Virus record (IMG/VR): IMGVR_UViG_2537561977_000028
DNA length: 19,830 bases
Direction: 5' to 3' (one strand)
DNA from: a virus
Lineage: Duplodnaviria; Heunggongvirae; Uroviricota; Caudoviricetes
This document shows positions 1 through 19,419 of this stretch, piece after piece. The position numbers and the translations under genes are program-made. Numbering within the stretch: the stretch's first letter is position 1; each line of letters starts with the position of its first letter. A model generated the notes under the pieces. The model ran no database searches and was not told the origin of the DNA. It saw only the letters and a list, made by a program, of their open reading frames with translations.

Positions 1-1214
1 GTGAAACTCAATGCCCGTCAAATAGACACAGCCAAGCCAAAAGAGAAGGCTTACAAGCTGGCCGATGGTGGCGGTTTGTATCTCTTGGTAAAACCTAATG
101 GAGGTAAATACTGGCGACTTAAATATCGTGTAGCTGGTAAAGAGAAGCTATTGGCACTAGGTGTTTATCCTGAGGTTACTCTAGCCGATGCTCGGGCAAA
201 ACGTGAAGATGCGAAAAGAGGTATCGCTGGTGGTATCGATCCGATGGAAGCGAAACGAGAGGAAAAGATTGCCCGGGAAACGCAGTTAAACAACACCTTC
301 AAAGATATTGCCCTTGAGTGGCACAGCAGCAAATTAAAAAATGGTCTGCTGGTTATGCTTCAGACATCCTCGAAGCCTTCAACAAAGATGTGTTCCCTTA
401 CATTGGCAAAAAACCCATCGCCGAAATCAAACCACTTGAACTTCTGAATGTGCTGCGTCGCATCGAGGGGCGCGGTGCTACAGAAAAAGCCAAAAAAGTG
501 AGGCAACGGTGCGGGGAAGTTTTCCGCTATGCAATAGTCACTGGTCGCGCAGAGTATAACCCTGCACCAGACCTTACTAGCGCGATGCAAGGCCATGAAT
601 CTAATCATTACCCTTTCCTTACAGCCAAAGAATTACCTGATTTTTTCAAGGCATTGTCCAGTTACTCAGGAAGCGCATTGGTTGTTATGGCGGCTCGTCT
701 ACTGATTATCACCGGCTTGCGGACTGGCGAACTACGTGGCGCATTATGGGATGAAATTGATTTCAACAAGGCTATCTGGGAGATACCCGCTTCACGTATG
801 AAAATGCGGCGGCCTCATATTGTGCCATTGTCTGAGCAGGCTCTTTCGCTTATTGGGAAGATTAGAGAAATAACAGGCAATTACCCTCTTATGTTTCCCG
901 GGCGCAATGATCCAAGGAAAACAATGAGCGAGGCCAGCATAAACCAAGTGTTTAAGCGCATTGGCTACGCTGGACGTGTAACTGGTCATGGGTTCCGGCA
1001 CACTATGAGTACGATTTTGCATGAGCAGGGCTATAACACCGCGTGGATAGAAACGCAGCTCGCTCACGTTGATAAGAACTCAATTCGTGGCACATACAAC
1101 CATGCGCAATATCTGGATGGAAGGCGGGAGATGCTTCAATGGTATGCCGACTATATGGATTCTCTCGAGCATGACGGAAATGTGGTGCATATGGTGTTTG
1201 AAAAACACGCATGA
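1..1214 (+). pseudogene. int: P4/CP4-57-type tyrosine integrase (IntA-like), reading frame broken by an apparent -1 frameshift
   Basis: Frame-1 ORF 1..447 carries a typical P4-integrase N-terminus (KLADGGGLYLLVKPNGGKYWRLKYR). Frame-3 ORF 318..1214 carries the catalytic half (LRTGELRGALWDEIDF, HGFRHT, LAHVDKNSIRGTYNH). The frames meet at an A6 run (336-341); one extra A would give a continuous protein reading WHSSKLKKWSAGYAS. The GTG at position 1 may be the true start, or the start lies just upstream of the window. Confidence 0.85.
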
Positions 1215-1358
1215 AACAACTGGACAAGTATACAGAGGTTTACTAAAGTATAGGGGAGTAGATTGATAAAAACTCACAGAGGATTGCTATTTAACAGTTA
1301 GCCCTGGAGAAGGGCAATCGCTCTTTTACAAACGAAGGTGTATTGAGCCTTCTACGTC

Positions 1359-1420
1359 GCTGACAAAGCGGAATGTTCTTTAACAGGCTTTGGCGCTGAC
1401 AAAGCGCAATTGTTCTTTAA
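1359..1420. repeat. Imperfect ~26-bp direct repeat pair (GCTGACAAAGCG[G/C]AAT(T)GTTCTTTAA) in the int-alpA intergenic region
   Basis: Two copies read directly at 1359-1383 and 1395-1420, 36 bp apart start to start. Candidate protein-binding sites (AlpA or integrase arm-type); function not established. Confidence 0.5.
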
Positions 1421-1521
1421 AACTACTGGATGTCACGCCTAATAGCGTGATCCTGCCGAAATGCAGGGTAGCTCTACCCTTGTGGAGCAAACAAACCAAA
1501 ACAATCTGACTATCTTTTATA

Positions 1522-1556
1522 AAAGACCGCAATATGTTTTTCATATTGTGGTCTTT
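1522..1556. other. Long hairpin / palindrome (AAAGACCGCAATATG - TTTTT - CATATTGTGGTCTTT)
   Basis: 15-nt arms with one mismatch, read directly. No clean downstream T-tract on the plus strand, so it may be an operator or RNA structure rather than a terminator. Confidence 0.4.
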
Positions 1557-1642
1557 GGCGTATTCGACATTTGACGCAAATAAAACTCTCGCCATTCGTT
1601 GCAGGAGGGGGTTATTGCGTCATTAGTACAGGATATTAATAA

Positions 1643-1846
1643 ATGGCTAATTACAATTCATTAATTCGTCTCTCTGAAGTTCAAAGGCGAACTGGTTATA
1701 GCAAAGCATGGATTTATCGTCTTATTAGTCAGGGGAGGTTCCCTAAACAGGTAAAAATTGGAAGTCGGGCAATTGCTTTTGTTGAGTCTGAAATAGATGA
1801 ATGGATTGAGAAGTGTATATTAGAATCTAGAGACGAGGTGGCCTGA
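1643..1846 (+). CDS. alpA: AlpA-family (prophage CP4-57 regulatory protein) helix-turn-helix transcriptional regulator, 67 aa
   Basis: Translation LIRLSEVQRRTGYSKAWIYRLISQGRFPKQVKIGSRAIAFVESEIDEWI is the canonical AlpA/Xis-like HTH pattern. Position right after the integrase is typical of P4-like elements. Confidence 0.88.
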   Translation: MANYNSLIRLSEVQRRTGYSKAWIYRLISQGRFPKQVKIGSRAIAFVESEIDEWIEKCILESRDEVA

Positions 1847-2277
1847 TGGAAAAGAAAAACCGCCCATTACAGGCGGCTAATTCAGATATTCGTGTATCTG
1901 ATGTTACGCCCCTTACAAAATCCCTTCAAGCACCAAAGCGCACACCGAAAAAGCATCGTGCCAGAGTCTATATGCTGCGTACTGGTATAGAGGGATGGAC
2001 AGAAAATGACATTCTTCGCTACTGCCGTCTGTCTTCTGGTCGTAACTATGCAACAGAGTTAGAACGCCAGCTTGGAATCACTCTGGAGCGTATCGACGAA
2101 AAGAATCCTGATGGTATCGGAACACACCTTCGCTACCGTTTCTCCTGCCGTGGTGATGTTCTGAAAGTGATCACTCATATTAACCATCTTGCGAACATAA
2201 ATGATCACAACGGACTTTCTCAGCAGGAAATTGCCGACATTCTGAAACTCTACCCGGACGCGTTTAACGCCGCCTAA
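1846..2277 (+). CDS. Hypothetical protein, 143 aa
   Basis: ATG overlaps the alpA stop (TGATGG, translational coupling). Basic N-terminus, no recognisable motif. Confidence 0.6.
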   Translation: MEKKNRPLQAANSDIRVSDVTPLTKSLQAPKRTPKKHRARVYMLRTGIEGWTENDILRYCRLSSGRNYATELERQLGITLERIDEKNPDGIGTHLRYRFSCRGDVLKVITHINHLANINDHNGLSQQEIADILKLYPDAFNAA

Positions 2278-2289
2278 CGGAGACTGAAA

Positions 2290-3123
2290 ATGAACATCGA
2301 AAAAAGCAGATTAATTTCTGAGGCCGCCCCTCATCTGAACGCCTCTCTGGGCACAATTAACGGTAATGAATTTGCCGCAATTGTCCCGGTTATTCCTGGT
2401 CATATCGGTGGGCGTGAAACCAATATTGTTAGCGCAAAAGCGTTACACAAAGCGTTGGGCGTGGGAAAAGACTTCTCTACATGGATCACTGATCGCATCT
2501 CTGAATATGACTTCACCATTGGGCACGATTACTCAGTCCATAAAACTATTTCCCCAAATTTGGGGAAAATCCCGAATGGCGCGGCTTACAGCAAGATTAA
2601 GCAGTCTGGCAGACCCGGCAAAGACTATCTGTTAAGTGTCGGAATGGCGAAAGAACTGGCAATGATCGAACGCAATGATCAGGGGCGCGCTATCCGCCGT
2701 TATTTCATCCAGTGCGAGGAAGAATTACAGCGTAGCGTGCCTGAAATCGCCGCCCGCTATCGTCGCCAGCTAAAAGCCCGTCTCAGTGCCGCAAACAACT
2801 TTAAGCCAATGTGCGATGCGCTGAATATGGCCCGTGCCGAGATGGGTAAAACGACGCAGCAACACCACTACACAAACGAGAGCAATATGATTTCTCGTAT
2901 CGTTCTTGGTGGGCTAACTGCTAAACAGTGGGCGCGGATAAATGGCTATTCTGGCGAACCTCGCGACCATATGAACGCAGAACAACTTGAGCACCTCTCA
3001 TATCTCGAAAGCACCAATATCACGTTAATTGATATGGGCATGGAATATGAGCAGCGCAAAGGAGAACTCACCCGCCTGTCGCAACGCTGGCTCGCCAAGC
3101 GTCTGGAGGCGGTCAATGTTTAA
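2290..3123 (+). CDS. Phage antirepressor-like protein (AntA/AntB-type N-terminal domain), 277 aa
   Basis: Segment SAKALHKALGVGKDFSTWITDRISEYDFTIGHDYSVHK ... GRPGKDYLLSVGMAKELAMIE matches my memory of the AntA antirepressor N-terminal domain. Family assignment is by eye only. Confidence 0.6.
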   Translation: MNIEKSRLISEAAPHLNASLGTINGNEFAAIVPVIPGHIGGRETNIVSAKALHKALGVGKDFSTWITDRISEYDFTIGHDYSVHKTISPNLGKIPNGAAYSKIKQSGRPGKDYLLSVGMAKELAMIERNDQGRAIRRYFIQCEEELQRSVPEIAARYRRQLKARLSAANNFKPMCDALNMARAEMGKTTQQHHYTNESNMISRIVLGGLTAKQWARINGYSGEPRDHMNAEQLEHLSYLESTNITLIDMGMEYEQRKGELTRLSQRWLAKRLEAVNV

Positions 3124-3298
3124 GCCGACAGGAACACCACAACCTCAAAAACGCTACAAAGATGCCCACGGAGCACTCGTTACTGTCGAAAGCGTGTCTC
3201 ACAACCGAGTGACGTTTTATCGCGACGGGTATCAATCGCCATGCGTACAACCGCTGGCACGTTTCATGAAGGAGTTCGCGGAGGTTAACAAATGCTAA
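3116..3298 (+). CDS. Small hypothetical protein, 60 aa
   Basis: ATG at 3116 lies 6 nt after a GGAGG (3105-3109) and overlaps the stop of the upstream gene. The ORF-track entry 3029..3298 is probably over-extended at its 5' end. Confidence 0.5.
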   Translation: MFKPTGTPQPQKRYKDAHGALVTVESVSHNRVTFYRDGYQSPCVQPLARFMKEFAEVNKC

Positions 3299-4359
3299 CC
3301 GTCCAGAAGAAGATATTTTCACTTGCTGGCATGTCGCCAAAATCCAGCAATATGACGGCAAAATCAGTTATTAATACAGCAGATACAAGCAAAGTTTATC
3401 ATTTGCTGGTGGTCGGAACGGATGCCTTAACCATACCAGAAATCTCGGGCGATGATATTAGCATTGAGAAGGTCAGCGGCTGCGCCAGAAAATTTCTGGT
3501 CGTAGATGATGTCTTCCGCTCGTGTAGTGACTCCACAAAAACATTCGTCCACGCGCGTGACGTTAACGAAATGAGCGCGATGTACTGTGCTTCTGGTTCT
3601 TCCAATAGTGAGTTTTCGGAGTCCATAAAAAAGAGCTTGCCGTTATGCGGCAACACGGTTTATGGTTATAAGGCACCTCATAAAACGGGTGCCGGGATTG
3701 GCGTCCTGAAAATTCTGAAGGCGACATATGACGCGCCGAGCGTCTTTTTTTATGTCGTAGGTCTGACTCACCCATTTTTTGGGCGTTGGTGTATAATCCA
3801 GCGCCTTTGTCAATCAATGGTGGCTCAGGCGGGGGCTTCTTCGGAAGCGCCGGTATCCTTCAGAGCCGGTTACGCCAACCCTGTCTGGGCTACCACCAGC
3901 GAAATTGGCGTTTCCGGTGGTAGCGTAACCTGCTATCTGAAGGAGGCTGCCACATGCTGGCTACTACCCCTACCCAAAAACCGCAATTTATCTGGATTAT
4001 CGCCGCAGTTCGCCGCGATTGCCCGACAATTACCGCCAAAATTCATCATATTGCTGCCGAGTCTGAACGCGATGCTCGCCGTTCTCTGGTGCGCGATCAC
4101 GTCTGCTTTTTTGCTGGTCGTATCCGCATGGAGGTGGCACATGATTAAAACCTACGATGTGCATATGGATCCCCTCGAACGCACAAGCCAGATCATCACA
4201 CTGACAGAAGTGATTAACGACATTCTGGTGAGCAACTCTCCCTCACGAGACGAAAGACTGAAGGCGTTACTCGCGATATTGGATCTCGCCGTTCGTGACG
4301 TTCATTTCCTGCTGGAAGGTGGCGAAATGCCAGGAAAAACGGGGGCAACCAATGAATAA
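3292..4359 (+). CDS. Open reading frame of uncertain extent (355 codons without stop); probably coding only in its 5' part
   Basis: ATG overlaps the upstream stop (ATGCTAA). Frame 1 is purine-rich at codon position 1 up to about 3950, then uses rare codons (CTA CTA CCC CTA, AGG, ATA) where frame 3 (3954..4148) looks coding. See findings. Confidence 0.3.
3954..4148 (+). CDS. Small hypothetical protein, 64 aa
   Basis: AGGAGG at 3941-3946, 7 nt before the ATG. Codons are mostly high-frequency NNC/NNG types. Stop overlaps the next ATG (ATGATTAA). Confidence 0.5.
   Translation: MLATTPTQKPQFIWIIAAVRRDCPTITAKIHHIAAESERDARRSLVRDHVCFFAGRIRMEVAHD
4141..4359 (+). CDS. Small hypothetical protein, 72 aa (internal start within the long frame-1 ORF)
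   Basis: GGAGGTGG precedes the ATG at 4141. Translation [30 protein letters not shown]... is protein-like. Stop overlaps the next start (ATGAATAA). Confidence 0.45.
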   Translation: MIKTYDVHMDPLERTSQIITLTEVINDILVSNSPSRDERLKALLAILDLAVRDVHFLLEGGEMPGKTGATNE

Positions 4360-4546
4360 CTCAATTAATGCCCCTCGACTTACGTCCGCACTTCAATTAA
4401 TCGAGCAAGCAGCGACTGTCCTGGTTGCTGTCAGTCTTTCGGCTGAAGAAATGGACGCTGCTGATGTCGTGGATGCGATTAAAGCGTGCTCATCTTTGGT
4501 TAACGATGCCCGTGCAGAGCTGGTAATTCTTGGGGGTGAAAAATGA
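4352..4546 (+). CDS. Small hypothetical protein, 64 aa
   Basis: ATG at 4352 preceded by GGGGG and overlapping the upstream stop. The ORF-track entry 4295..4546 is likely over-extended. Confidence 0.5.
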   Translation: MNNSINAPRLTSALQLIEQAATVLVAVSLSAEEMDAADVVDAIKACSSLVNDARAELVILGGEK

Positions 4547-4806
4547 ATATCAACTTAATTTATCGTCATCCGCGTGAGCTGGAAATTGAATCATTGCTGG
4601 GGCGTGAAGAGCCATATCCAGACACATTCACTCCCGCAGATTGCGCGACTGAACGGCTTACCAGAGCGCGCACAGGTCTGGTTCATGTGATGAATGAGAT
4701 TATTCCCTCGGTGGGAGGGGAACAGGCGACAGTAATCAATAGCTGGCTACAAAAAGTTACCTCCCTGATAGATATCAGTTTAATCGATGTGGAGAGTGCG
4801 AAATGA
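4543..4806 (+). CDS. Small hypothetical protein, 87 aa
   Basis: Start overlaps the upstream stop (ATGA) and its own stop overlaps the next ATG at 4803; part of a translationally coupled chain. Confidence 0.55.
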   Translation: MNINLIYRHPRELEIESLLGREEPYPDTFTPADCATERLTRARTGLVHVMNEIIPSVGGEQATVINSWLQKVTSLIDISLIDVESAK

Positions 4807-4920
4807 CCAACATCCAGCTCATTGAAGCGCAATGTCGCATCGAACAGGTTCAGACTGTTTTAGGGTTCTGGCTTGAAGGGGCCATCCCCATGAAGTGGTC
4901 AACAAAAACTGGCCACCGAG

Positions 4921-6068
<1,148 letters not shown>

Positions 6069-6269
6069 TATGGCACCTGTGTTGTTCTGAGGTGAGCATA
6101 TCACCTCTGTTCAGGTGGCCAAATTCAGTAAACCACTTCACCAGCAACAGAGACAAGTTAATGATTGGCGCGGTTATGTCACTGCTCAATGGCGTACCAG
6201 AAGCTATTCAGGAAGCAGACGAATTGTTGGGCAAATATGAGTTACAGAATCATTCAGGCGAGGCGAAAC

Positions 6270-6872
6270 ATGAATAATTTCTTAACCTTCCATGCAGAAG
6301 CAACGCCTGACGGCGTAAACATCATGTACCGCAGCAACGATGGCATGACAGAACGCGTTGAGGCCGTTTCATATATTGATGCCGTAAATCGTCTGGATGC
6401 CGGGGATTATGACGATAAACCAGATGAAGGTATGTCAATACATCTTGCTATTGCCGATGGCGGCAACCAGGGATATTTCGATTACACATCACAGCATAAC
6501 GTCATTATGTGGAGATGGCTGATCGCAACAGTATTCATGCTGGAAATGAGAGAGGAAAACGGCACTGTCAGCATCATTGATGATACTGGCAATCCTTCCG
6601 AAGTGGCTGTTTATTCCAACGGCATCGTCGCCATGCCGCTGTATCCAGTAGCAGAGCGCCTCGCTATGGCAAACAACATTGAGGGCGCGATGATAGAACG
6701 TTTTGGCATCGAGTCTGGCACAGAACGCGCCATCATTTTCTACAGAGCCATGATGGATGTGGAACAAGGAGCACTGACTCCATTTGGTCGTGAAACGCTT
6801 GCTGAACTTCACAACAGCTTTATAGCTGAACTGAATGAAAACGGCATGCCAGCGGAACCAGTGACGCACTGA
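6270..6872 (+). CDS. Hypothetical protein, 200 aa
   Basis: ATG at 6270 overlaps the stop of the disrupted small gene (ATGAATAA). The ORF-track entry starts at 6165 but the coupling pattern favours 6270. No recognisable motif. Confidence 0.55.
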   Translation: MNNFLTFHAEATPDGVNIMYRSNDGMTERVEAVSYIDAVNRLDAGDYDDKPDEGMSIHLAIADGGNQGYFDYTSQHNVIMWRWLIATVFMLEMREENGTVSIIDDTGNPSEVAVYSNGIVAMPLYPVAERLAMANNIEGAMIERFGIESGTERAIIFYRAMMDVEQGALTPFGRETLAELHNSFIAELNENGMPAEPVTH

Positions 6873-6882
6873 GGATGGAGCC

Positions 6883-7224
6883 ATGATTACTAAAAATTTC
6901 CGACTGAATGCGCTGGCAAATAAGTATGCGTCGGCACTGTATAACCACATTACCTCCACCAGCGGCGGGGACTATTTCATGGTTCATGCGGACGACAAGG
7001 CCGTACGTGTGGAAATCGTCAATGGAGTAAAAGGCGTTCGCAGCCTGATCGATAGCTACACACTGGCTGCCATGAAAGTGTTCTACCCGCAGTGGGAAAC
7101 CGTGGGGATCGAGCTTCTTGATCGTTGCGTCGCTAAGGACGGATTGACTGACGTCGGGCGTGAGATATGGCAAAGCATGGTTAATGACATGGGCGCAACT
7201 GTAGCGGGAGGTTCTCATGCGTGA
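6883..7224 (+). CDS. Hypothetical protein, 113 aa
   Basis: Plus-strand ORF in the operon upstream of the primase; stop overlaps the next start. Confidence 0.55.
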   Translation: MITKNFRLNALANKYASALYNHITSTSGGDYFMVHADDKAVRVEIVNGVKGVRSLIDSYTLAAMKVFYPQWETVGIELLDRCVAKDGLTDVGREIWQSMVNDMGATVAGGSHA

Positions 7225-11495: not shown

Positions 11496-11538
11496 CGCTT
11501 TATCAGTTAACTCGGCAACAATATAAGGAATTCAGCGA

Positions 11539-12216: not shown

Positions 12217-13535
12217 TGGCGACATGGCAACTTGGCGGGCTGCCTAGCATGGCACCGCAAAATGATAATGCTCCTCGTTCTTCCGTTCCTCAGCCTGTGC
12301 AGTATCAGCAGCAGCCAAACGTAGGTTTAATGGCGCTACAGGGGCTAAGAGGCGTTGCTGAGATTAATCAGCAGGCGCAAATTTCCCAGCAGCTAAAAGA
12401 ATATCAGGCACGGTTGGGTAGTGCGGTAGCTAATAATGATCGTGTTGGCGTGCAGAAGTTAATGGCCCAGTATCCCCAGTTTATGGCTGATTCTCAAAAA
12501 CAGATGGGATTCATTGATGCTGAGCAAAATCGGCAGACCGCTGACGCTGCCATGAATCTGCGTCTTGCGTCACAAACTGGAGATCCACTGACCATGCAGA
12601 AGGCCATTCAGCAGGCAAATCCAGTATTACAGCGATTTGGTCTTCCTGCTGAAGAGGTTTATCAGTCTTGGCAGAATGCCCCACAGGAATTCAACAGAAT
12701 CACTGACCTCATCCACCTCCATGCTGATCCAAATAGTTACTTTAGTGTTCAAGAGAAGCAGCAAGGGCAGAGTATTGCACAGCAGAACGCAGATACATCT
12801 GCATATAATGCTCAGGTTAATGCGGAACAGGGTAATCGGCGTCTCGATATGGAGCAGTTCAAAGTCCTATCCGATAACCAGCTACGCACGAGAGAAATGG
12901 TTCTGAAAGCACGACTTGGACGTGCTCAAAATGACATCGAGAGAGACAAGCTCAATGCTGAACTGAGCAAGGTACAGCAGGCGAAAGTGGAGAAGATGAA
13001 CGATAAAATTAATACTGTTGCAGGTAACATCGACTCCTTGAACTCTGCGCTTGAAGTGGGTCATGAACTGGCGGGAATTGTAGGGAAACATCCTTCGGCC
13101 GTTACCCGTTCGCAGAACTATAACCCCCTGACGCTGGGGTTTGGATTCCTTCCTGATGTAGCAGAAGACACACGAAGCCTACGCGCCAAAGCTGATGAAT
13201 ACAACCTAAAGGTTATTCTGCCTAGCCTCAAAGGGACTTTTGGCTCTAACCCAACCGAAGGGGAAAGGGCTGCCCTTATGCAATCTCAAAATGGCATTAA
13301 GTCAGCAACCAGCAATGAGGCATTTTTGCGAGAGTTGAATAAAGCGCAGGACGTAATTATTCGAATGCAGAAACGACAGATTGCCGGGCTCGGTATTCCT
13401 GTAACCAAATCTAAGGACGAAGAAACTGATACCAAAATGCTGTTGCAGGATCCTTCTCTGGTTAAGGATTATGTGACCGCACATGGCTATCTGCCGGAAA
13501 GTTACTATCAGGCAAAACTTAAGGGATGGCAATGA
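12216..13535 (+). CDS. Gln-rich coiled-coil protein, 439 aa; virion-internal/ejection-protein-like
   Basis: Long Q/A/N-rich heptad-like stretches (QQAQISQQLKEYQARLGSAVANN..., LDMEQFKVLSDNQLRTREMVLKARLGRAQNDIERDKLNAELSKVQQAKVEKMNDKIN). Overlaps neighbours at both ends. Confidence 0.7.
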   Translation: MATWQLGGLPSMAPQNDNAPRSSVPQPVQYQQQPNVGLMALQGLRGVAEINQQAQISQQLKEYQARLGSAVANNDRVGVQKLMAQYPQFMADSQKQMGFIDAEQNRQTADAAMNLRLASQTGDPLTMQKAIQQANPVLQRFGLPAEEVYQSWQNAPQEFNRITDLIHLHADPNSYFSVQEKQQGQSIAQQNADTSAYNAQVNAEQGNRRLDMEQFKVLSDNQLRTREMVLKARLGRAQNDIERDKLNAELSKVQQAKVEKMNDKINTVAGNIDSLNSALEVGHELAGIVGKHPSAVTRSQNYNPLTLGFGFLPDVAEDTRSLRAKADEYNLKVILPSLKGTFGSNPTEGERAALMQSQNGIKSATSNEAFLRELNKAQDVIIRMQKRQIAGLGIPVTKSKDEETDTKMLLQDPSLVKDYVTAHGYLPESYYQAKLKGWQ

Positions 13536-16252
13536 TGGCACAACTGACAGAAAAACAGAAAGCCTATTCCCGTCATCTCGATGAAAAATATGGTTTCCCA
13601 TCAGGGACGATGGAAACATTAGTTGGCAATGAATCTAGTGGTAACGGAAGTGCCGAGTCACCGAAAGGAGCTAGAGGATTTGCTCAACTGATGCCCTCAG
13701 TAATGAGTGATGCTGGTTATCGTGGAACAGATCCGCGCTCACTGCCATTTGAAAAGCAAATGGATATCGCAGCAAACCATCTCAATAAAGGAATGAAGCG
13801 ATTTGGTGATATAGGTATGGCATTGGCTGGGTATAATTCTGGCTATGCTCGTATTAATGCCGTAAGAAACGGTAAATCTACACTGCCAGATGAAACGGCT
13901 AATTACGTAAGTAAATTTGCAGATGCCGGAATAATCCCTGATGACAGTGAAATCTTGCAGTTTGCACAAACCAGTCAACATCGCAATCTTCAGCAGCCTG
14001 ACTACTCAGAGCTTGATAAAGAAATCTCTCAGGTGGGAGATATTTCTGCATGGGAAGCAAAACGTCAGCAATTTAAGAACATAGAAGCAGGACTACCAAC
14101 AGCCAGTTCATGGGAGCAGAAAAGAGCTCATTTTCTCGCCGATGAAAATGCCGGGGAACCGCAGCAGCAAGTAGCCAAGTCTAACCTTAATCCTGAGATG
14201 GAATATCTTTCGCCAGGACTGAAAGCTGCGCCAGAGCAGATGGCCAGAGGGATTGCTAATATACCGTTTGATGTAATGGACGCAGGCGTGGGGGTAGTCA
14301 ATGCGGCGCAATCAGCCGGAGCATGGGCAGCTCAGAAGCTTGGTGTGGGTGATGGTACATACACGCCCATATCACCTGTCTTTCGCCCAGTAGACCAACC
14401 TACAGATCCATACGCGCAGGCTGGTGAGCAGCTAGCACCTTACCTTATTACAGGATTAGGTGCAGGAAAGGCAGCTACCGCAGCTTCTTCAGTTGCCAAC
14501 GCTCCACGTGCTGAACGTGCGGCCACAAAGGTGGCTAGTATGTTGGCAGAAAACCTGCCAGGTACATTGGTGAACGCCCAAAAGAACGGGCAGATCAGCC
14601 CAGAAGACCTAGCAAAAGAGACAGGTATTGGCCTAGCAGGATCGCTAGGAGCACGCGCTTTAATAAAGAGCGGACAGACAGCCAGTGACGTAATGCGAGA
14701 TGTATTGCGGAGTAATACAAATCAATCAAGCTATGTGTTAGGGGCAGCAAATACTCTGGAAACCGCCAATGATGTATCGAAAGCAGCGCGTTCTGCCGTA
14801 GGCCGAGAGCATATCGCATCGCAGGCATCAAACGTCAGAGATGATGTCGCTAAGGCGGCGAAAATCACTGGTATTAATATCAACACCCTGACGCCTGGAA
14901 TGCGCTCAGGTAGTCGTGGAATTGCCCAAGCAGAAGGTGTTCTGGCATCAACTCCTGGGAATGTTCAGGATGCTCACCTTACGGCCTTCAATGAAATATC
15001 CTCAAAGTTGAATAAGCAGTTGTCTGATTTCGGTGCTGATTCTGGAAGCGCATCAGAAAAAAGCGCAGCAATTAAAGAGCGCATCATCGCGAGCCTCAGT
15101 GATATGAAAACAGCAGAGAATATGGCATGGGCAGAACTGCGAAGCACGATGCCACGCGAAAGGATGAAAATGAGTAATGGGATGGCTGTCGTCCAAGCAG
15201 AAAAAGCAGCCAATGTTCCACTCAGCCCGGAGATGAAACAGTTTCAGGCTGCCAACAACCAAGGTGGCGGCATAACCTTCGACGGGATGAAGGCATGGCG
15301 TGCTAAGTTTGCTGATGCTGAACAAGCAAACACCCGGGCAGGTAAGGCCAATGCCGCCCGGGTTGCCGGAGAAATGCGCAGAGCTATCACTGATGACATG
15401 CGCATCATGGCTGAAAAAGGAAACTTCCTCACAGAATGGCAGAAAGCTAACGATCTCTCTAAAAGTTACATTATCGCCAAACAAAATGCCGAATCTGTTT
15501 TTGGTCGAGATCTCGCATCAGACGCTATGGTAAGAAAAGGTGCCGATACGCTTAAGGCATCCGCAAACACTGGAACGGGAGCTTTTCACCGTCTTATCTC
15601 CGCGCAGCCGGAAGCAGAACGCCAACCAGCAATAGCATCTATTCTTCAGCATGCTGTGGCGCAGGGAGAGAAGGGAGGAATCGGTGAAGAGTCTGGTATC
15701 CAGTATTTTGCCAAGCTCATGACCCAGCAGAATGTAAACGCCATCAGTCGTCATGCGCCAGATCTCGGTAGAATGATGAAAGAGTTCGGTGTACTCGCTA
15801 AAGCCAGCACCAGACCGCAGCGATACGTAGAGCGCACGGGAAGAACAACTGAGGCTCTCAAAACGCTCGATTCAGGCCTTCCAAAGATCGTCGGCGTGAT
15901 TATGAACGGAGTTCAACAGTCAGGTGCGATCGCTGGAGGCTTTGGCGGTGGTGTAATTGGTTCGATTAGTGGTTTGGTTGCTGGTGGCGCGCTGAGAAAT
16001 ACTGTGGCTAAGATTGGGGCGACAAGAAGTGGTCGATATGCGATAGAGAAAGCCGTTCAGGAAGCTACAAAAGCAGTGCGCGCAGGGGCATCACCAGCAG
16101 CGATCGCCGCAGCAGAGAAACGATTTTCGGCCAATAAAATTGCCATGAAAGCAATTCGTGATGCCGTTGGGGCTGAAGAATTCGTGAAACTGACAAGGGC
16201 CGGGATTGTAGCTACCCTCAGTGGCATGAAAGATGTTAGCGAATGGGAATAG
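13526..16252 (+). CDS. Large protein with N-terminal lytic transglycosylase (SLT) domain, Ala/Gln-rich central region and Gly-rich hydrophobic C-terminal segment, 908 aa
   Basis: SLT family-1 motifs: catalytic E-S in LVGNESSGNGSAESPKGARGFAQLMP and the AYNxG-type motif ALAGYNSGYARINAV. C-terminal GAIAGGFGGGVIGSISGLVAGGAL. Real start may be the ATG at 13532 or 13535, which are better spaced from the AAGGGA. Confidence 0.75.
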   Translation: MAMMAQLTEKQKAYSRHLDEKYGFPSGTMETLVGNESSGNGSAESPKGARGFAQLMPSVMSDAGYRGTDPRSLPFEKQMDIAANHLNKGMKRFGDIGMALAGYNSGYARINAVRNGKSTLPDETANYVSKFADAGIIPDDSEILQFAQTSQHRNLQQPDYSELDKEISQVGDISAWEAKRQQFKNIEAGLPTASSWEQKRAHFLADENAGEPQQQVAKSNLNPEMEYLSPGLKAAPEQMARGIANIPFDVMDAGVGVVNAAQSAGAWAAQKLGVGDGTYTPISPVFRPVDQPTDPYAQAGEQLAPYLITGLGAGKAATAASSVANAPRAERAATKVASMLAENLPGTLVNAQKNGQISPEDLAKETGIGLAGSLGARALIKSGQTASDVMRDVLRSNTNQSSYVLGAANTLETANDVSKAARSAVGREHIASQASNVRDDVAKAAKITGININTLTPGMRSGSRGIAQAEGVLASTPGNVQDAHLTAFNEISSKLNKQLSDFGADSGSASEKSAAIKERIIASLSDMKTAENMAWAELRSTMPRERMKMSNGMAVVQAEKAANVPLSPEMKQFQAANNQGGGITFDGMKAWRAKFADAEQANTRAGKANAARVAGEMRRAITDDMRIMAEKGNFLTEWQKANDLSKSYIIAKQNAESVFGRDLASDAMVRKGADTLKASANTGTGAFHRLISAQPEAERQPAIASILQHAVAQGEKGGIGEESGIQYFAKLMTQQNVNAISRHAPDLGRMMKEFGVLAKASTRPQRYVERTGRTTEALKTLDSGLPKIVGVIMNGVQQSGAIAGGFGGGVIGSISGLVAGGALRNTVAKIGATRSGRYAIEKAVQEATKAVRAGASPAAIAAAEKRFSANKIAMKAIRDAVGAEEFVKLTRAGIVATLSGMKDVSEWE

Positions 16253-16402: not shown

Positions 16403-17101
16403 ATGATTAAAAATCTTCTTTTAATATTATCCCTGTCATTATTGGCTGGATGCGTACAAAAACCGTTAGTAACGGTCAATGCTTTATCTTCCGGGCAATC
16501 TGTCGGTAAGAAGTTCTTGATCATCCCCGCAAGCCAAGAACTTTGGAACACCAAACAGATTGAATACACTCAAATAGCTACGGTAGTAGCCGCCAGTTTA
16601 TCAAGCCAAGGATATACACAAGTTAAAGATGAAAAATTGGCTGACCAGGTAATTCTCTTGAACTTTTTGAGAAGCGGGGCCATTTCAAATACTCGTAATG
16701 TAACCATCCCAATATACGGGCAAACTGGTGTGAGCTCAGCAACAACGTACGGAAACTCGAACACCACGTTCAATAGTTATGGTGGTGGCTACGGTACAGC
16801 TAATACCACTGGAACGGCAACAACAGTTTATACGCCTACTTATGGAATTACTGGCGCGTATAACACAACTGTGACGGACACGTTCTACGGCGCAGGGGTG
16901 ATACTCCAGTCGTTTGATGCCAAGGCCTATCTCAATAATAGGCAGATTAATATGTTATGGAAAGTTGGTAGCTCAGTCGTCTCGCAACAGTCTGATGGAA
17001 TTGCTGATTACAAGGGGTTGGCGAGAATAGCCGCTAGCTATGCCGGGAAAAATACAGAAGGTGATATAACTTTTAATGTTGACCCTAAAGCACCAAATTA
17101 A
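16403..17101 (+). CDS. Lipoprotein, Thr/Gly/Asn/Tyr-rich, 232 aa
   Basis: Signal peptide with lipobox MIKNLLLILSLSLLAG-C. GGTGAG 6 nt before the ATG. Low-complexity central region TTYGNSNTTFNSYGGGYGTANTTGTATTVYTPTYG. Locally AT-rich compared with its neighbours. Confidence 0.7.
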   Translation: MIKNLLLILSLSLLAGCVQKPLVTVNALSSGQSVGKKFLIIPASQELWNTKQIEYTQIATVVAASLSSQGYTQVKDEKLADQVILLNFLRSGAISNTRNVTIPIYGQTGVSSATTYGNSNTTFNSYGGGYGTANTTGTATTVYTPTYGITGAYNTTVTDTFYGAGVILQSFDAKAYLNNRQINMLWKVGSSVVSQQSDGIADYKGLARIAASYAGKNTEGDITFNVDPKAPN

Positions 17102-17108
17102 CTAATAA

Positions 17109-17244: not shown

Positions 17245-17614
17245 CAGTACGCGCATATCCGCTTTATGTGAAACAGGAAGATTTTTCTGATATCACAGCC
17301 ACCGCAAAACACCAATTTCGTGACCAGTACGCGCGCGAGGTGTATCAGTTGCAAAATTTTTTGCAGCTGTGTCCGACCAGTACGCACGCGATGGCGGGGA
17401 GCACCATAAAACTGTTCTCTACATAAGACAGAGTGGTGGTGATGTGTTGATTATCGGCGTATATGCGCACAGGACGCGCTATGACGATGTTTTATGCACA
17501 TGTATCTGGTGTGATAAATCGCGTTACATGACCTCTCATGTTGTGCTGGTGGTTATCACGACTTTCTGAATCTGGCCTTTGCCTGATATTTTGCGACAAG
17601 TACGCGCGCGTAGC
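17245..17614. repeat. Four dispersed copies of a ~16-bp GC-rich motif GAC(C/A)AGTACGC(G/A)CGCG, partly palindromic (TACGCGCGCGTA)
   Basis: Copies at about 17245-17254, 17322-17337, 17375-17390 and 17595-17610. The region between copies 2 and 3 holds the palindrome TTGCAAAATTTTTTGCA. Confidence 0.5.
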
Positions 17615-17638
17615 ATCGACAGCATACACATTGGATAT

Positions 17639-17860
17639 TCATTTTGTGACCAATGCGATAAGTAGCGGGATAAGAATTGATAAAATCAACAGGCCGATGA
17701 TCCACTTTTGATTTTCACTGGCCTTATCTCTATTTTCATCCATCTTATCAATAATTCGACGCTCCAAGCCGTGCATATCACCGCGAATGGCAATCATCTC
17801 ATTGCGAACATCCGAGAAGTGGTTGGCTTGATGTTCAATGTGTGGCGTTCTGCCTTTCAT
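17639..17860 (-). CDS. Small tail-anchored membrane protein, 73 aa (XhlA/holin-like architecture)
   Basis: Charged N-terminal region plus a single C-terminal transmembrane segment (WIIGLLILSILIPLLIALV). GAGGA RBS upstream on the minus strand. Family name is a guess. Confidence 0.5.
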   Translation of the reverse strand: MKGRTPHIEHQANHFSDVRNEMIAIRGDMHGLERRIIDKMDENRDKASENQKWIIGLLILSILIPLLIALVTK

Positions 17861-17939
17861 TCCTGATCCTCACCTATCGTCACCACCTGCTGGTGTATAA
17901 AGGTATTGGCCCAAGCAGCTTTCCAATGGGCACTCATGT

Positions 17940-18395
17940 TTATACGCTGACCTTACAATCAATCACCGCTTTTAACTTTTCAGCATTGCTTCCCTGACGC
18001 TTCCACGCGCTGTAAATATCTTTATCCCACGCTTTACCAGCTTTTGTTTGATAGCCTGCTTCATTGATCCGTTCAGCTATCACACGCCCATTATCAAATC
18101 CCTGTCGGATGGTATCGGCAATGATCTTTATAACTGCCGTTTCGTTATATGGCTTTGGTGGGATGTTCGGCTTTCCGGCAATAAGCGACGCAGCGGCTTT
18201 TTCCATGCGCTCCACCAGCCCAAGCATTCGTGAATCAATAGACTTTTCCGGCTGTCCCAGCTTCATGCGAATCGCATCAACAAGCCAGGAGGTTTTATCC
18301 CCTCCAGAAGCGAGAACAGACCGATTAAACTCATCCTGCAATTCAGATGGGATGCGGAACGCGACCAGATTAGATTTGCTCATTGCAAAGACCAT
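17940..18395 (-). CDS. Ribbon-helix-helix (Arc/CopG-like) N-terminal domain protein, 151 aa
   Basis: N-terminus SNLVAFRIPSELQDEFNRSVLASGGDKTSWLVDAIRMKL has the RHH beta-strand/helix pattern. Co-directional with the downstream membrane-protein gene. Confidence 0.55.
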   Translation of the reverse strand: MVFAMSKSNLVAFRIPSELQDEFNRSVLASGGDKTSWLVDAIRMKLGQPEKSIDSRMLGLVERMEKAAASLIAGKPNIPPKPYNETAVIKIIADTIRQGFDNGRVIAERINEAGYQTKAGKAWDKDIYSAWKRQGSNAEKLKAVIDCKVSV

Positions 18396-18497
18396 ATCAG
18401 TGAGTAATATCCATACAGTATACCACTGTATAACACTGTTATACGCTCAAATATCAGCCAGAAAATAACGGACCAATCACAAAGCTATCGCTGTGTT

Positions 18498-18627
18498 GTT
18501 GGTTCAGAGCTGGGCTGTGTTGGTTCAAAATGAGTTGATGTTGGTTCAATATTTCAGAAAAAACACAATAAAAACAACGATATTTACAAATTGAACCAAC
18601 TGAACCAACTGAACCAACTGAACCAAC
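18498..18627. promoter_or_regulatory. Iteron cluster B: 3 spaced GTTGGTTCA, 43-bp AT-rich spacer, 4 tandem TGAACCAAC; inverted copy of cluster A
   Basis: GTTGGTTCA at 18498-18506, 18519-18527, 18540-18548. AT-rich spacer 18549-18591. TGAACCAAC at 18592-18600, 18601-18609, 18610-18618, 18619-18627. Its reverse complement aligns with cluster A. Confidence 0.65.
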
Positions 18628-18663
18628 ACCTTTTTGCTTATCTATATAATCTGAGAGGCAGAA

Positions 18664-18951
18664 ATGATAAGGGACAGGAAAGCTGAAGAGCTGGAGTCAA
18701 AAGGGCTATACCGGAGAGTTGCCGCACGATGGGCAGAAGTCATGATGCTGGCAGATGGCGATAAAGAACGTGAACATGCAGCAAACAGACGCTCTGAATG
18801 TATCCGTAAGGCGGCACGCCCACCAGCAACTACAGACAGATTCGGAGATTTAAGACAGGCAGTTAAGCGGACTCATTCGGCTCTTGGTATGGATGAGGAA
18901 GCGAGAGGGTACTTCAGGCGTTATCGCGATAAAGATTGCCAGAGACAGTAA
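18664..18951 (+). CDS. PerC-family transcriptional regulator-like protein, 95 aa
   Basis: N-terminus MIRDRKAEELESKGLYRRVAARWAEVMM matches my memory of PerC/Pch-family proteins common in P4-like islands. GAGAGG RBS; TATAAT at 18645-18650 just after the iterons. Confidence 0.55.
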   Translation: MIRDRKAEELESKGLYRRVAARWAEVMMLADGDKEREHAANRRSECIRKAARPPATTDRFGDLRQAVKRTHSALGMDEEARGYFRRYRDKDCQRQ

Positions 18952-19419
18952 TGCTCTCTCTGTTTTGGCAAATTACCCCTCACTTTGAAGGGATCGGAGC
19001 TATAAAAATGGTTTTAGGTACATTCCTCAAATTGAGGATTGTGGGAAAACCAATGGGTTAGGCTTTTCCCCCAATGGGGGTTTTCGAAAGAATCAATGGG
19101 TTAGTCCATCGTGCAAATTTGCACCCTGCCAGCCAACGCAATTTCTCGTTGGCGAAAATATCAGGTATTTACTGAACGAACGGTCTACCAGTCTGTTCAG
19201 TTACCAGTTGTACATGGCTGCTTTATGTGCAAATGGTGGTGAGAGAAAATTGTTTGGGGGTACTTTTGGGGGTATCTCCAAATACGCAATGGGGAAATGT
19301 CTTTATATATCAATGTATTTTTATTGTTTGTTTTGTTCCTATTATCGCATTTGTGCCATTGTAACCTTGGCAATTCATCAAAATACTGTTCTGACATCAG
19401 GCAGTGCAGGTGCAGCTAT

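What the first reader, a model, noticed from the sequence alone, without database searches (positions are those of the whole stretch)
1..19419. Island architecture: int-alpA-primase-perC backbone without sid/psu/delta, so not a classical P4
The backbone genes are the P4-like set, but I see no capsid-size (Sid), polarity-suppression (Psu) or Delta/Ogr zinc-finger genes, and no terminase or capsid genes. The island instead carries an antirepressor-like gene and the ejection-like cargo. This may be a distinct family of P4-related mobilisable elements whose helper and transfer mechanism is unknown.
Basis: partly seen in the sequence, partly recalled or inferred. Interest (0 to 1): 0.5.

Follow-up and report, generated by a model that had tools for sequence, protein, structure and literature searches.

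The report
Decayed EcCIMP1-type satellite of P22-like phages
This island is a damaged copy of an already published E. coli phage satellite (EcCIMP1) that rides on P22-like phages, so its helper is no longer unknown; what remains unexplained is why it carries its own set of phage DNA-injection proteins.

Summary
The window holds a P4-type integrase, AlpA, an AntA antirepressor, a Zn-ribbon/Toprim/DUF927 primase, PerC and a P22-type ejection-protein cassette (gp14, gp7, gp20, SLT-gp16). It has no Sid, Psu, Delta, epsilon, terminase, capsid or P4 cos.

The element is not new. It sits at thrW (tRNA-Thr, proA side) with attR core TCCTATTATC at 19337-19346. It is 96-99% identical over about 16 kb to EcCIMP1 (Pick et al., ISME J 2025), a 20-kb "PICI" shown to be induced and transduced by the P22-like phage Kapi1.

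This copy is decayed: an integrase frameshift, a 1250-bp IS3-family insertion and a 10-bp deletion in gp14.

I found no mention of these points in that paper:
- a P4-type isrK/C4 RNA plus Icd immunity region lying under the "Ash" ORF;
- two inverted GTTGGTTCA iteron clusters, arranged like P4 ori/crr;
- ejection genes under strong purifying selection (dN/dS about 0.07) that occur in at least three swapped types on one backbone;
- a repeated non-coding motif that otherwise occurs almost only inside Sf6-type small-terminase genes, which makes it a candidate pac mimic.

The parts
1..1214 (+). P4-type tyrosine integrase, frameshifted in this copy (1-nt loss in an A-run near position 336; ORFs 1-447 and 318-1214)
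   Evidence: The intact 404-aa homologue is L001:4001-5215. 42% identical to P4 Int and 49% to Kapi1 Int.
1643..1846 (+). AlpA-family regulator. Its EcCIMP1 counterpart is required for excision and transfer.
   Evidence: PF05930, 7e-20. The protein annotated at the corresponding position of strain 3985 (L001) is the same RefSeq protein as MP1 alpA, WP_000035054.1. Function from PMC11773190.
1846..2277 (+). Conserved 143-aa protein of unknown function
   Evidence: No family hit. Conserved in L005, L006, L016 and L017.
2290..3123 (+). AntA/AntB-type antirepressor. By inference it stands in for the P4 epsilon helper-derepression function.
   Evidence: PF08346, 1.5e-21; phrog_5817, 1e-37.
3116..3298 (+). 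DUF4222 protein
   Evidence: PF13973, 6e-25.
3673..3750 (+). isrK-type RNA (leader element of the P4/P1-type immunity region)
   Evidence: RF01394, 67.8 bits against a gathering score of 50. The same element is present in P4 and in L001, L002, L005 and L017.
3813..3900 (+). C4/CI-type antisense immunity RNA. Its loop is complementary to the icd ribosome-binding site.
   Evidence: RF01695, 79.9 bits against a gathering score of 45. TCCTTCAGA at 3856-3864 pairs with TCTGAAGGA at 3936-3944 and with 3714-3721.
3954..4148 (+). Icd-like cell-division inhibitor ORF, first gene under C4 control
   Evidence: NF033153, 3.7e-20. Annotated as Icd-like in MP1 and M10.
3292..4359 (+). 355-aa 'Ash family' ORF. 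Probably not a real protein over most of its length, because its Pfam match is the translation of the isrK/C4 RNA region.
   Evidence: PF10554 matches aa 124-232, which is nt 3661-3987. One search places the RNAs there; the P4 'cI' ORF hits the same Pfam family.
4352..4890 (+). Small early-operon ORFs (4352-4546, 4543-4806, and a third ORF starting at 4803 that is cut by the IS)
4891..6140 (-). 1250-bp IS3-family insertion sequence (orfA at 5766-6104, orfB at 4921-5739) with a CCA target duplication. Not part of the ancestral island.
   Evidence: HTH_Tnp_1 and rve; absent from L001 and L002; ends TGAAGTGG...CCACTTCA.
6270..7588 (+). Three conserved unknown ORFs ahead of the primase: phrog_1515 at 6270-6872, then 6883-7224 and 7217-7588
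7572..10331 (+). Primase-helicase (Zn ribbon, Toprim, DUF927)
   Evidence: 34% identical to P4 alpha over aa 5-339; phrog_1139, 6e-179.
10357..10467 (.). Iteron cluster A (3 + 3 copies of GTTGGTTCA around an AT-rich spacer) directly after the primase stop. Candidate origin.
   Evidence: Conserved in L001, L002, L005, L006, L007, L016 and L017.
10916..11077 (+). Conserved 53-aa ORF heading the ejection operon
   Evidence: 85-100% conserved in L005 and L006.
11094..11545 (+). P22 gp14 homologue (DUF2824), inactivated here by a 10-bp deletion at 11439
   Evidence: PF11039, 1.5e-61 on the intact L001 copy.. 84% aa identity to Kapi1 gp14, with a 282-bp stretch (11187-11468) 94% identical at DNA level.
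11539..12216 (+). P22 gp7 ejection protein homologue
   Evidence: PF25688, 6.6e-73. 58% identical to Kapi1 gp7.
12216..13535 (+). P22 gp20 ejection protein homologue
   Evidence: PF16928; phrog_917 and phrog_2534. 26% identical to Kapi1 gp20.
13526..16252 (+). Lytic-transglycosylase domain fused to a gp16-type ejection protein
   Evidence: PF01464; phrog_770, 1e-120. PF26808. 24% identical to Kapi1 gp16.
16403..17101 (+). Lipoprotein (lipobox LLAGC) of unknown function, located where sieA lies in P22. Candidate exclusion gene (inference only).
   Evidence: sequence. No family hit.
17317..17610 (+). Cluster of three same-strand copies of TTYSNGAYMAGTAYGC(GCGCG) in non-coding DNA. Candidate pac-site mimic.
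   Evidence: One exact copy lies inside Kapi1 terS. In viral contigs the 18-mer is found in Sf6-type terS genes or in this satellite family.
17639..18395 (-). Two variable accessory ORFs: a 73-aa protein with a C-terminal hydrophobic stretch read as a membrane helix, and a 151-aa protein whose N-terminus I read as ribbon-helix-helix. They replace the xis-like alpA_1 of EcCIMP1.
18498..18627 (.). Iteron cluster B, an inverted copy of cluster A (3 + 4 copies of GTTGGTTCA)
18664..18951 (+). PerC-family regulator
   Evidence: PF06069, 2e-32. The EcCIMP1 homologue repressed LEE1 in Citrobacter rodentium.
19337..19346 (+). attR core TCCTATTATC, identical to the 3' end of tRNA-Thr. Right end of the island.

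Best explanation
The window is a chromosomal copy of an EcCIMP1-type phage satellite at the thrW tRNA-Thr site. It is a P4-related chassis that parasitises P22-like (Lederbergvirus) phages rather than P2.

Proposed cycle:
1. Quiescence (inferred): the isrK/C4(CI)-type antisense RNA pairs with the icd ribosome-binding site and keeps the icd-to-primase operon off, as in P4 and P1.
2. Induction (shown for the near-identical EcCIMP1): when a P22-like helper enters lytic growth, alpA is switched on. AlpA and Int are both needed for excision, which occurs at the TCCTATTATC core.
3. Replication (inferred): the Zn-ribbon/Toprim/DUF927 primase-helicase replicates the circle from the paired GTTGGTTCA iteron clusters.
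4. Transfer (shown for EcCIMP1 at low frequency; mechanism inferred): helper capsids carry the element. The repeated terS-like motif downstream of the ejection genes is my candidate for the site recognised by an Sf6-type small terminase.
5. Delivery (inferred): the satellite supplies its own gp14/gp7/gp20/gp16 ejection proteins, which are loaded into helper capsids and build the DNA conduit in the next cell. The gp20/gp16 pair differs from the helper's, which may let the DNA enter cells protected by SieA-type exclusion.

This particular copy is probably immobile because of the integrase frameshift, the IS in the early operon and the broken gp14.

My confidence by step: identity as an EcCIMP1-type satellite about 0.9; RNA immunity and origin about 0.6; pac mimic about 0.35; ejection proteins used for the satellite's own delivery about 0.45.
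For: Identity. The integration site is the same: proA, then tRNA-Thr, then the island. The att core is the same. Nucleotide identity to the MP1 copy is 96.3% over 1-4890 and 98.7% over 6141-17619. Gene order is the same.

Helper. PMC11773190 reports that circularisation is seen only with Kapi1 and increases on induction, that alpA-lux is helper-induced, and that transduction depends on int and alpA.

P4 relatedness..

Origin. There are 13 exact GTTGGTTCA copies, all in two clusters. The pattern search (exact or one mismatch) found 18 matches where about 5 are expected; no shuffle reached 18. The two-cluster layout is conserved in Leclercia and Citrobacter although the Leclercia primase is only 68% identical.

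Ejection module. It is complete. dN/dS between the E. coli and Leclercia copies is 0.066-0.084, with dS of at least 1. Satellite copies form a clade at 78% identity or more. Homologues at 60% or less sit in true P22-like prophages. Three module types occur on the same backbone, and gp20+gp16 is always present. P22 tolerates foreign ejection proteins, and SieA escape maps to gp16 and gp20. gp14 is a virion protein.

pac lead..
Against: Helper dependence was not tested on this sequence, and this copy carries three lesions. EcCIMP1 transduction by Kapi1 is very inefficient, and only 2 of 21 EcCIMP1 strains carry a Kapi1-like prophage, so Kapi1 may not be the natural helper.

No experiment shows satellite ejection proteins in virions. 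The published phenotype is added superinfection immunity, which fits an exclusion role equally well.

The local alignment between terS and the island is not above shuffled controls on its own: 15 against a shuffle maximum of 16. The motif also encodes a conserved TerS peptide (FRDKYA), so the copies could be gene fragments. The position of the Sf6 pac site could not be checked because the paper is not held.

The integrase frameshift lies in a homopolymer run and could be a sequencing error.
Confidence: 0.8

Rival explanations
1. The ejection genes act as a defence rather than for transfer. Expressed from the resident island, divergent gp20/gp16 (and perhaps the downstream lipoprotein) interfere with conduit assembly by incoming P22-like phages, or poison the helper's progeny. 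This would explain the superinfection immunity reported for EcCIMP1.
For: EcCIMP1 adds to immunity of Kapi1 lysogens against Kapi1. The module is under purifying selection and is type-variable, as expected in an arms race. A lipoprotein lies where sieA lies in P22 (gene order from my own knowledge of P22).
Against: Type A carries all four cassette genes, including gp14, which is itself a P22 virion component. gp7 and gp14 stay close to the helper's versions (58% and 84%), as expected if they must fit helper capsids. Helper titres were unchanged by EcCIMP1. No PADLOC hit on gp20, SLT-gp16, the lipoprotein or six other ORFs; only AntA gave a weak hit to candidate family PDC-S22.
Confidence: 0.2
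2. The island is a classical P4-like satellite of P2-like phages in which sid, psu and delta are too diverged to recognise.
For: P4-type integrase, AlpA, an alpha-like primase N-terminus and a CI/C4 RNA region.
Against: Profile searches that do detect P4 Sid, Psu, Delta and epsilon find nothing in any island ORF. There is no P4/P2 cos. The only virion genes are P22-type. The demonstrated helper of the near-identical element is a P22-like podovirus.
Confidence: 0.02
3. The ejection cassette is inert debris: a fragment of a dead P22-like prophage that recombined into an integrative element.
For: The cassette has phage origin. In this window gp14 is broken and the island is decaying. A stretch of about 290 bp in gp14 is 94% (window) to 98% (MP1) identical to Kapi1, which shows recombination with phages.
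Against: The cassette keeps the same position and has intact ORFs in E. coli, Citrobacter and Leclercia. dN/dS is about 0.07 at saturating dS. Satellite copies are at most 52% identical to any phage gp16 in the collection. Alternative intact gp20/gp16 types occupy the same slot.
Confidence: 0.05
4. It is a conjugatively mobilised island, with 'DNA transfer protein' and 'primase' annotations taken at face value.
For: Only database names such as 'DNA transfer protein'.
Against: No Pfam or PHROG scan returned a relaxase, type IV secretion or coupling-protein family. The 'DNA transfer' proteins are P22 gp7, gp20 and gp16 homologues. Transfer of EcCIMP1 is by phage.
Confidence: 0.01

Closest known systems
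EcCIMP1 (E. coli MP1 PICI; Pick, Stadel & Raivio, ISME J 2025, PMC11773190; GenBank OR778291)
   Same: Same thrW site and the same TCCTATTATC core. Same gene order from int to the lipoprotein. 96-99% nucleotide identity over about 16 kb.
   Different: In the window the integrase is frameshifted, an IS3-family element sits in the early operon and gp14 has a 10-bp deletion. The right end (17620-19336) differs: two minus-strand ORFs replace the xis-like alpA_1, and the pRiA4b-ORF3 gene block is missing.
Satellite phage P4
   Same: Integrase family (42% identity). AlpA/Vis regulator. Zn-ribbon plus Toprim primase N-terminus (34%). The isrK then C4/CI RNA then kil/icd immunity layout. Two separated iteron clusters reminiscent of ori and crr.
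   Different: No sid, psu, delta, epsilon or cos. The primase C-terminal half is DUF927 rather than D5_N/Pox_D5. About 19.5 kb against 11.6 kb. The helper is a P22-like podovirus, not P2. It carries an AntA antirepressor and P22 ejection genes.
Gram-negative PICIs (EcCICFT073, EcCIEDL933) and capsid-forming PICIs
   Same: int and alpA at the left end, a primase/replication module followed by the origin, helper-induced alpA, and phage-mediated transfer.
   Different: No Rpp, TerS, Ppi or capsid-morphogenesis genes. Instead it encodes internal virion (ejection) proteins, so it is not free of structural genes. The authors place it as a 'Type C' PICI outside the characterised clades. cf-PICIs make capsids, whereas this element encodes only the injection apparatus.
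P22/Sf6 ejection-protein cassette (genes 14-7-20-16)
   Same: Same gene order and the same families. An SLT-gp16 fusion also exists in true P22-like phages and prophages such as Dewey, Huey and Serratia, Tatumella and E. coli prophages. The mosaic type variation matches that described for P22-like phages.
   Different: Here the cassette follows a primase and origin, with no tail needle (gp26) upstream and no tailspike downstream. The satellite clade is at most 52% identical to phage gp16s in the phage collection and at most 60% to prophage homologues.
P1 immI (c4-icd-ant) and Gifsy-1 IsrK modules
   Same: A C4-family antisense RNA complementary to the icd ribosome-binding site, with an isrK element upstream.
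   Different: The antirepressor gene lies upstream of the RNAs, not downstream. The genes downstream of icd are the replication genes, as in P4.

Membership tests
Classical P4-like satellite | Sid capsid-size determination protein | tested here: not met
   PHROGs detect P4 Sid (phrog_6165). No island ORF hits it. tblastn found nothing.
Classical P4-like satellite | Psu polarity-suppression/decoration protein | tested here: not met
   PF07455 and phrog_6366 detect P4 Psu. Absent from island ORFs.
Classical P4-like satellite | Delta (Ogr/Delta zinc-finger late activator) | tested here: not met
   PF04606 and phrog_603 detect P4 Delta. No island hit. The best tblastn match has E = 0.41 and lies on the wrong strand of gp16.
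Classical P4-like satellite | Epsilon helper-derepression protein | tested here: not met
   PF25738 and phrog_10016 detect P4 epsilon. No island hit. An AntA-type antirepressor is present instead.
Classical P4-like satellite | P2/P4 cos site | tested here: not met
   blastn-short of the P4 cos junction against the window gave only chance 10-18 nt matches.
Classical P4-like satellite | P4-type integrase, Vis/AlpA, alpha primase and CI RNA immunity | tested here: met
   Int 42%. Alpha aa 5-339 34% (N-terminal half only). AlpA PF05930. isrK plus C4 in the same order as in P4.
PICI (Gram-negative type) | int followed by alpA in the same orientation at one end, then a primase/replication module with an adjacent origin | tested here: met
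PICI (Gram-negative type) | No phage structural or lysis genes | tested here: not met
   gp14, gp7, gp20 and gp16 are P22 virion components. No capsid, tail, terminase or lysis genes.
PICI (Gram-negative type) | Induction, excision and high-frequency packaging by a helper phage | not testable with these tools
   Shown for EcCIMP1 with Kapi1, at low transfer frequency. This copy carries int, IS and gp14 lesions.
PICI (Gram-negative type) | Packaging-redirection gene (Rpp, TerS, Ppi or Cpm) | tested here: not met
   No such family in Pfam or PHROGs scans. Only a terS-like DNA motif is present.
EcCIMP1 lineage | thrW integration with TCCTATTATC core, and backbone synteny with near-identity | tested here: met
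EcCIMP1 lineage | Second AlpA-family (xis-like) gene alpA_1 at the right end | tested here: not met
   The window diverges from MP1 over 17620-18496 and carries other ORFs there.
P22-like prophage (Lederbergvirus) | Terminase, portal, scaffold, coat, tail and tailspike genes | tested here: not met
   tblastx of Kapi1 against the window found only int, gp14, gp7 and the N-terminal part of gp20. Contrast with true prophages L009-L013.

The most novel reading that the evidence does not exclude
EcCIMP1-type elements may represent a satellite strategy not yet described. Instead of resizing capsids or encoding a terminase subunit, they would do two things. First, they would lure an Sf6-type small terminase with a cluster of non-coding copies of a sequence that otherwise lies inside the phage's own terS gene. 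Second, they would replace the helper's DNA-injection conduit with their own swappable gp20/gp16 pair (with or without gp14/gp7). That would let satellite DNA enter cells that exclude the helper through SieA-type blocks. The chassis would be a P4 relative (CI/C4 RNA immunity, ori/crr-like paired iterons) re-tooled for podovirus helpers.
Probability: 0.3. Interest if true: 0.7.

Novelty: already known. Interest (0 to 1): 0.3.

Why it matters
As filed, the finding asks whether this is a non-classical P4 relative with an unknown helper. That was answered in 2025: it is an EcCIMP1-like satellite of P22-like phages, so the window adds a decayed copy and a variant right end.

The value of this re-analysis lies in mechanism. 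The published work left packaging unexplained and treated the genes downstream of the primase as vague 'DNA transfer' candidates. This analysis shows four things:
- They are a selected, type-swapping P22 ejection cassette.
- The 'Ash protein' region is really a P4-type RNA immunity switch.
- Replication probably uses two iteron clusters.
- A specific DNA motif links the satellite to Sf6-type small terminases.

Each point gives a direct experiment on how satellites exploit short-tailed phages, which is much less understood than P4/P2 or SaPI/80alpha.

Tried and rejected
- The genome-contig scan with gp20 returned only two loci, which is too few for a family census. I used protein homologues plus context look-ups instead. 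One look-up (P0023) was not on record.
- The NCBIfam scan of ten ORFs (eight of them unassigned) gave only the Icd hit. The PADLOC scan of seven unassigned ORFs plus AntA, gp20 and SLT-gp16 gave only a weak AntA hit to PDC-S22. No known defence system was found.
- A search for a helper-like pac site by local alignment of the Kapi1 terS region against EcCIMP1 gave a score within the shuffle range. I kept the hit only because it fell on an independently repeated, conserved motif.
- Comparing terS genes at 72% amino-acid identity did not show unusual synonymous conservation at the motif, so that test was uninformative.
- The paper mapping the Sf6 pac site (Leavitt et al. 2013) is not held. Its content is cited only from memory.
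- The sigma-70 promoter scan found fewer sites than in shuffles and was not used.
- I considered that the 19.5-20 kb size (about half of Kapi1's 39.4 kb) reflects a packaging constraint. I did not pursue it, because headful packaging of concatemers imposes no such constraint and M10 carries an 18.4-kb variant.
- I considered structure prediction of the lipoprotein and did not run it, as it is peripheral to the finding.

Full report
**What is in the window**

ORF listing and profile scans give a single, mostly co-directional gene array:
- a P4-type tyrosine integrase (1-1214);
- AlpA (1643-1846);
- an unknown 143-aa protein;
- an AntA/AntB antirepressor (2290-3123);
- DUF4222;
- an 'Ash family' ORF (3292-4359);
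- several small ORFs;
- an IS3-family element on the other strand (4891-6140);
- three unknown ORFs;
- a Zn-ribbon/Toprim/DUF927 primase-helicase (7572-10331);
- a 53-aa ORF;
- homologues of P22 genes 14, 7, 20 and 16 (11094-16252), the last fused to a lytic-transglycosylase domain;
- a lipoprotein (16403-17101);
- two minus-strand ORFs;
- PerC (18664-18951);
- a truncated LysR gene that belongs to the chromosome (19420-19830).

**What is absent**

None of the island ORFs hit the Sid, Psu, Delta/Ogr or epsilon families. Positive controls show that the same libraries do recognise the P4 proteins: Pfam PF04606, PF07455 and PF25738, and PHROGs 6165, 603, 6366 and 10016.

tblastn of every P4 protein against the window and two intact relatives found only Int (42%), the N-terminal 340 residues of alpha (34%) and the cI/kil region.

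tblastx of the whole helper phage Kapi1 against the window found only int, gp14, gp7 and the start of gp20. There was no match to the P4 cos junction beyond chance.

The observation 'P4-like backbone without sid/psu/delta, no terminase or capsid' is confirmed.

**Where it sits, and what it is**

A megablast against complete E. coli genomes places the window next to proA and tRNA-Thr (thrW), with paoD on the far side. From my own knowledge this is the CP4-6 site of K-12.

A literature search found Pick, Stadel and Raivio (ISME J 2025, PMC11773190). They describe EcCIMP1:
- a 19,963-bp island in tRNA-Thr between proA and yagU of E. coli MP1;
- flanked by TCCTATTATC;
- carrying integrase, AlpA, antirepressor, primase, 'DNA transfer' genes and PerC.

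I fetched the MP1 locus. The window is 96.3% identical to it over 1-4890 and 98.7% over 6141-17619, with the same gene order. The core TCCTATTATC occurs once in the window, at 19337-19346, and in relatives it also forms the 3' end of the tRNA. The island therefore ends at 19346 and begins about 180 bp left of the window.

For EcCIMP1 the authors showed the following:
- Circularisation is seen only in cells carrying the Lederbergvirus (P22-like) prophage Kapi1, and it rises on induction.
- alpA is induced by the helper, not by DNA damage alone.
- Both alpA and int are needed for excision and transfer.
- The element is transduced by Kapi1 at low frequency, while a chromosomal marker is not.

'Helper unknown' is therefore no longer true for this family.

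**This copy is decayed**

Compared with an intact relative (strain 3985, L001) the window has three lesions:
- It lost one A from an A7 run in the integrase gene. This causes a frameshift, though it could be a homopolymer sequencing error.
- It gained a 1250-bp IS3-family element with a CCA target duplication inside a small early-operon gene.
- It lost 10 bp (TTGGCGCTAC) from gp14.

Its right end also differs from MP1. Two minus-strand ORFs replace the xis-like alpA_1, and the sequence between perC and attR is different.

**It really is a P4 relative**

An Rfam scan found an isrK RNA (3673-3750, 67.8 bits) and a C4 antisense RNA (3813-3900, 79.9 bits), both above gathering scores. They are followed by an Icd-like ORF at 3954-4148 (NF033153).

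P4 itself has isrK followed by C4, which is its CI immunity RNA, in the same order. So do the E. coli, MP1, M10 and Leclercia copies.

The C4 loop TCCTTCAGA is complementary to TCTGAAGGA, which overlaps the icd Shine-Dalgarno sequence, and to a second copy upstream. A second arm has matching targets on both sides. This is the P1 c4 / P4 CI logic.

The Pfam 'Phage_ASH' match of the 355-aa ORF covers exactly these RNA genes (aa 124-232, which is nt 3661-3987), and the P4 'cI' ORF hits the same family. The 'Ash protein' is therefore most likely a translation artefact of an RNA locus.

**Candidate origin**

The 9-mer GTTGGTTCA occurs 13 times exactly, all in two clusters. In the pattern search (exact or one mismatch) there were 18 matches against about 5 expected, and no shuffle reached 18.
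- Cluster A is at 10357-10467, directly after the primase stop.
- Cluster B is an inverted copy at 18498-18627, just before perC.
- Each cluster has an AT-rich spacer.

The same two-cluster layout is kept in Leclercia, where the primase is only 68% identical, in Citrobacter, and in all E. coli variants. It resembles the ori/crr pair of P4, where crr also follows the alpha gene. That these clusters are the origin is inference.

**The ejection cassette**

Pfam and PHROGs identify the four genes that P22 places between its tail-needle gene (26) and sieA (gene order from my own knowledge):
- gp14 (DUF2824);
- gp7 (PF25688, 7e-73);
- gp20 (PF16928);
- gp16 (phrog_770, 1e-120, plus PF26808), here with an N-terminal SLT domain.

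gp14, gp7, gp20 and gp16 are all P22 virion components. The statement that EcCIMP1 lacks structural genes is therefore not strictly right.

Identity to the helper Kapi1 falls along the cassette: gp14 84%, gp7 58%, gp20 26%, gp16 24%.

The cassette is not debris, for four reasons:
- dN/dS between the E. coli and Leclercia copies is 0.066-0.084, with dS of at least 1.
- Citrobacter freundii islands keep the cassette behind the same primase, with SSB, ProQ and PerC inserted in between.
- SLT-gp16 homologues at 78% identity or more are all in such satellites. Those at 60% or less lie in true P22-like prophages with portal, coat and tailspike genes.
- The best phage match is only 46-52% identical.

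At least three cassette types occupy the same slot on an almost identical backbone:
- Type A is the one in this window.
- Type B has the same gp14/gp7 but a different gp20 and 'injection protein' (strain 85.0412 and Escherichia sp. MOD1-EC7003).
- Type C has only a gp20 and a gp16 of yet another type, 66% identical to phage N7 (strain M10).

The constant element is the gp20+gp16 pair. Those are the two proteins in which P22 mutants escape SieA superinfection exclusion. P22 has also been shown to assemble and inject with very different foreign ejection proteins (PMC10883804).

My preferred reading is that the satellite loads its own conduit proteins into helper capsids. I give this about 0.45. 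The main rival, at about 0.2, is that the proteins act in the resident cell as an exclusion device. That would fit the extra superinfection immunity reported for EcCIMP1.

**A candidate packaging signal**

No terminase, Rpp or capsid-redirection gene is present. Aligning the Kapi1 terS region with EcCIMP1 gave a best match of 17 of 18 nt, which is not significant by itself.

The matched island sequence, however, is one member of a repeated motif, TTYSNGAYMAGTAYGC(GCGCG):
- It occurs three times on the same strand in the window, at 17317, 17370 and 17590 (two exact matches and one with a single mismatch). Its 11-nt core, searched with up to one mismatch, gave 4 hits in the window against 0.45 expected; no shuffle reached 4.
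- It occurs 2-5 times in every relative, including Leclercia and Citrobacter.
- It always lies downstream of the cassette, in DNA that RefSeq annotates as intergenic.
- Kapi1 has exactly one perfect copy, inside terS. Its TerS is identical to that of HK620 and nearly identical to that of Sf6.

Of these, 87 lie inside Sf6-type terS genes, 27 lie in loci carrying genes of this satellite family, and 6 are in neither.

In P22-like phages the pac site lies inside the small-terminase gene. From memory, the Sf6 site lies in the part encoding the DNA-binding domain, but the paper was not available.

I regard the motif cluster as a candidate pac mimic, with probability about 0.35. The caveat is that the motif also encodes a conserved TerS peptide, so the copies could be relics of a terS fragment.

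**Prevalence and verdict**

The junction from the primase 3′ end through the origin and gp14/gp7 to gp20 is present at 80% coverage or more in 67 of 5,426 complete E. coli genomes. Many more share the backbone with other cassette types.

The finding is a correct description of a real element, but the element has already been published and its helper is known. I rate the novelty 'already known' and the interest at 0.3. The RNA immunity switch, the paired origin, the cassette types and the terS-like motif are additions that could guide experiments.

Noticed in passing
window 3292-4359 (RNAs at 3673-3750 and 3813-3900; icd at 3954-4148): The 'Ash family protein' ORF overlaps an isrK RNA, a C4/CI antisense RNA and, in another frame, an Icd-like ORF. 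The Pfam Phage_ASH match coincides with the RNA genes, and the P4 'cI' ORF hits the same Pfam family. The protein family therefore looks like a translation of an RNA locus.
   Followed up: yes
window 10357-10467 and 18498-18627: Two inverted clusters of the 9-mer GTTGGTTCA (13 exact copies), one right after the primase gene and one before perC. They are conserved in Leclercia and Citrobacter relatives, and the layout resembles P4 ori/crr.
   Followed up: yes
window 17317-17610; Kapi1 L003:18876-18891: A non-coding motif, TTYSNGAYMAGTAYGC, is repeated on one strand. Its only exact copy in the helper phage lies inside terS. In viral contigs the 18-mer is found almost only in Sf6-type terS genes and in this satellite family.
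   Followed up: partly
window 4891-6140: A 1250-bp IS3-family element (by my recollection IS911-like; ends TGAAGTGG...CCACTTCA, CCA target duplication) interrupts a small early-operon gene upstream of the primase.
   Followed up: yes
window 336-341: The integrase frameshift is a single A missing from a homopolymer run (A6 here, A7 in relatives). It may be a sequencing error rather than a true pseudogene.
   Followed up: partly
window 11187-11468; L002:18265-18556; Kapi1 L003:28041-28332: A stretch of about 290 bp inside gp14 is 94% identical to Kapi1 in the window and 98% in MP1. The gp14-to-gp7 region that contains it is only about 80% identical overall. This suggests recent gene conversion between satellite and helper.
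   Followed up: partly
L016 (strain 85.0412), L017 (strain M10), L006: The same satellite backbone carries different ejection cassettes, including one with only gp20 and gp16 and no gp14 or gp7. L016 also has a different integrase and sits near dinD/yicG instead of thrW.
   Followed up: partly
window 16403-17101: A lipoprotein (lipobox LLAGC, Thr/Gly/Tyr-rich) with no family match lies directly after gp16, where P22 has sieA. It is a candidate for the superinfection immunity reported for EcCIMP1.
   Followed up: no
window 19023-19104: Two 39-nt direct repeats (72% identical) lie next to attR, in a segment (18748-19336) not shared with the MP1 or strain 3985 copies. They may be integrase arm sites.
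   Followed up: no
window 17940-18395 (minus strand): A 151-aa ORF whose N-terminus I read as ribbon-helix-helix (Arc/Mnt-like). It is divergent from perC and next to iteron cluster B, and it occupies the place of alpA_1 in EcCIMP1.
   Followed up: no
L005:15853-15889; L007:4374-7197: The Leclercia relative has an abiF RNA hit downstream of the cassette. The Citrobacter relative has SSB, ProQ and PerC genes inserted between the origin and the ejection cassette.
   Followed up: no
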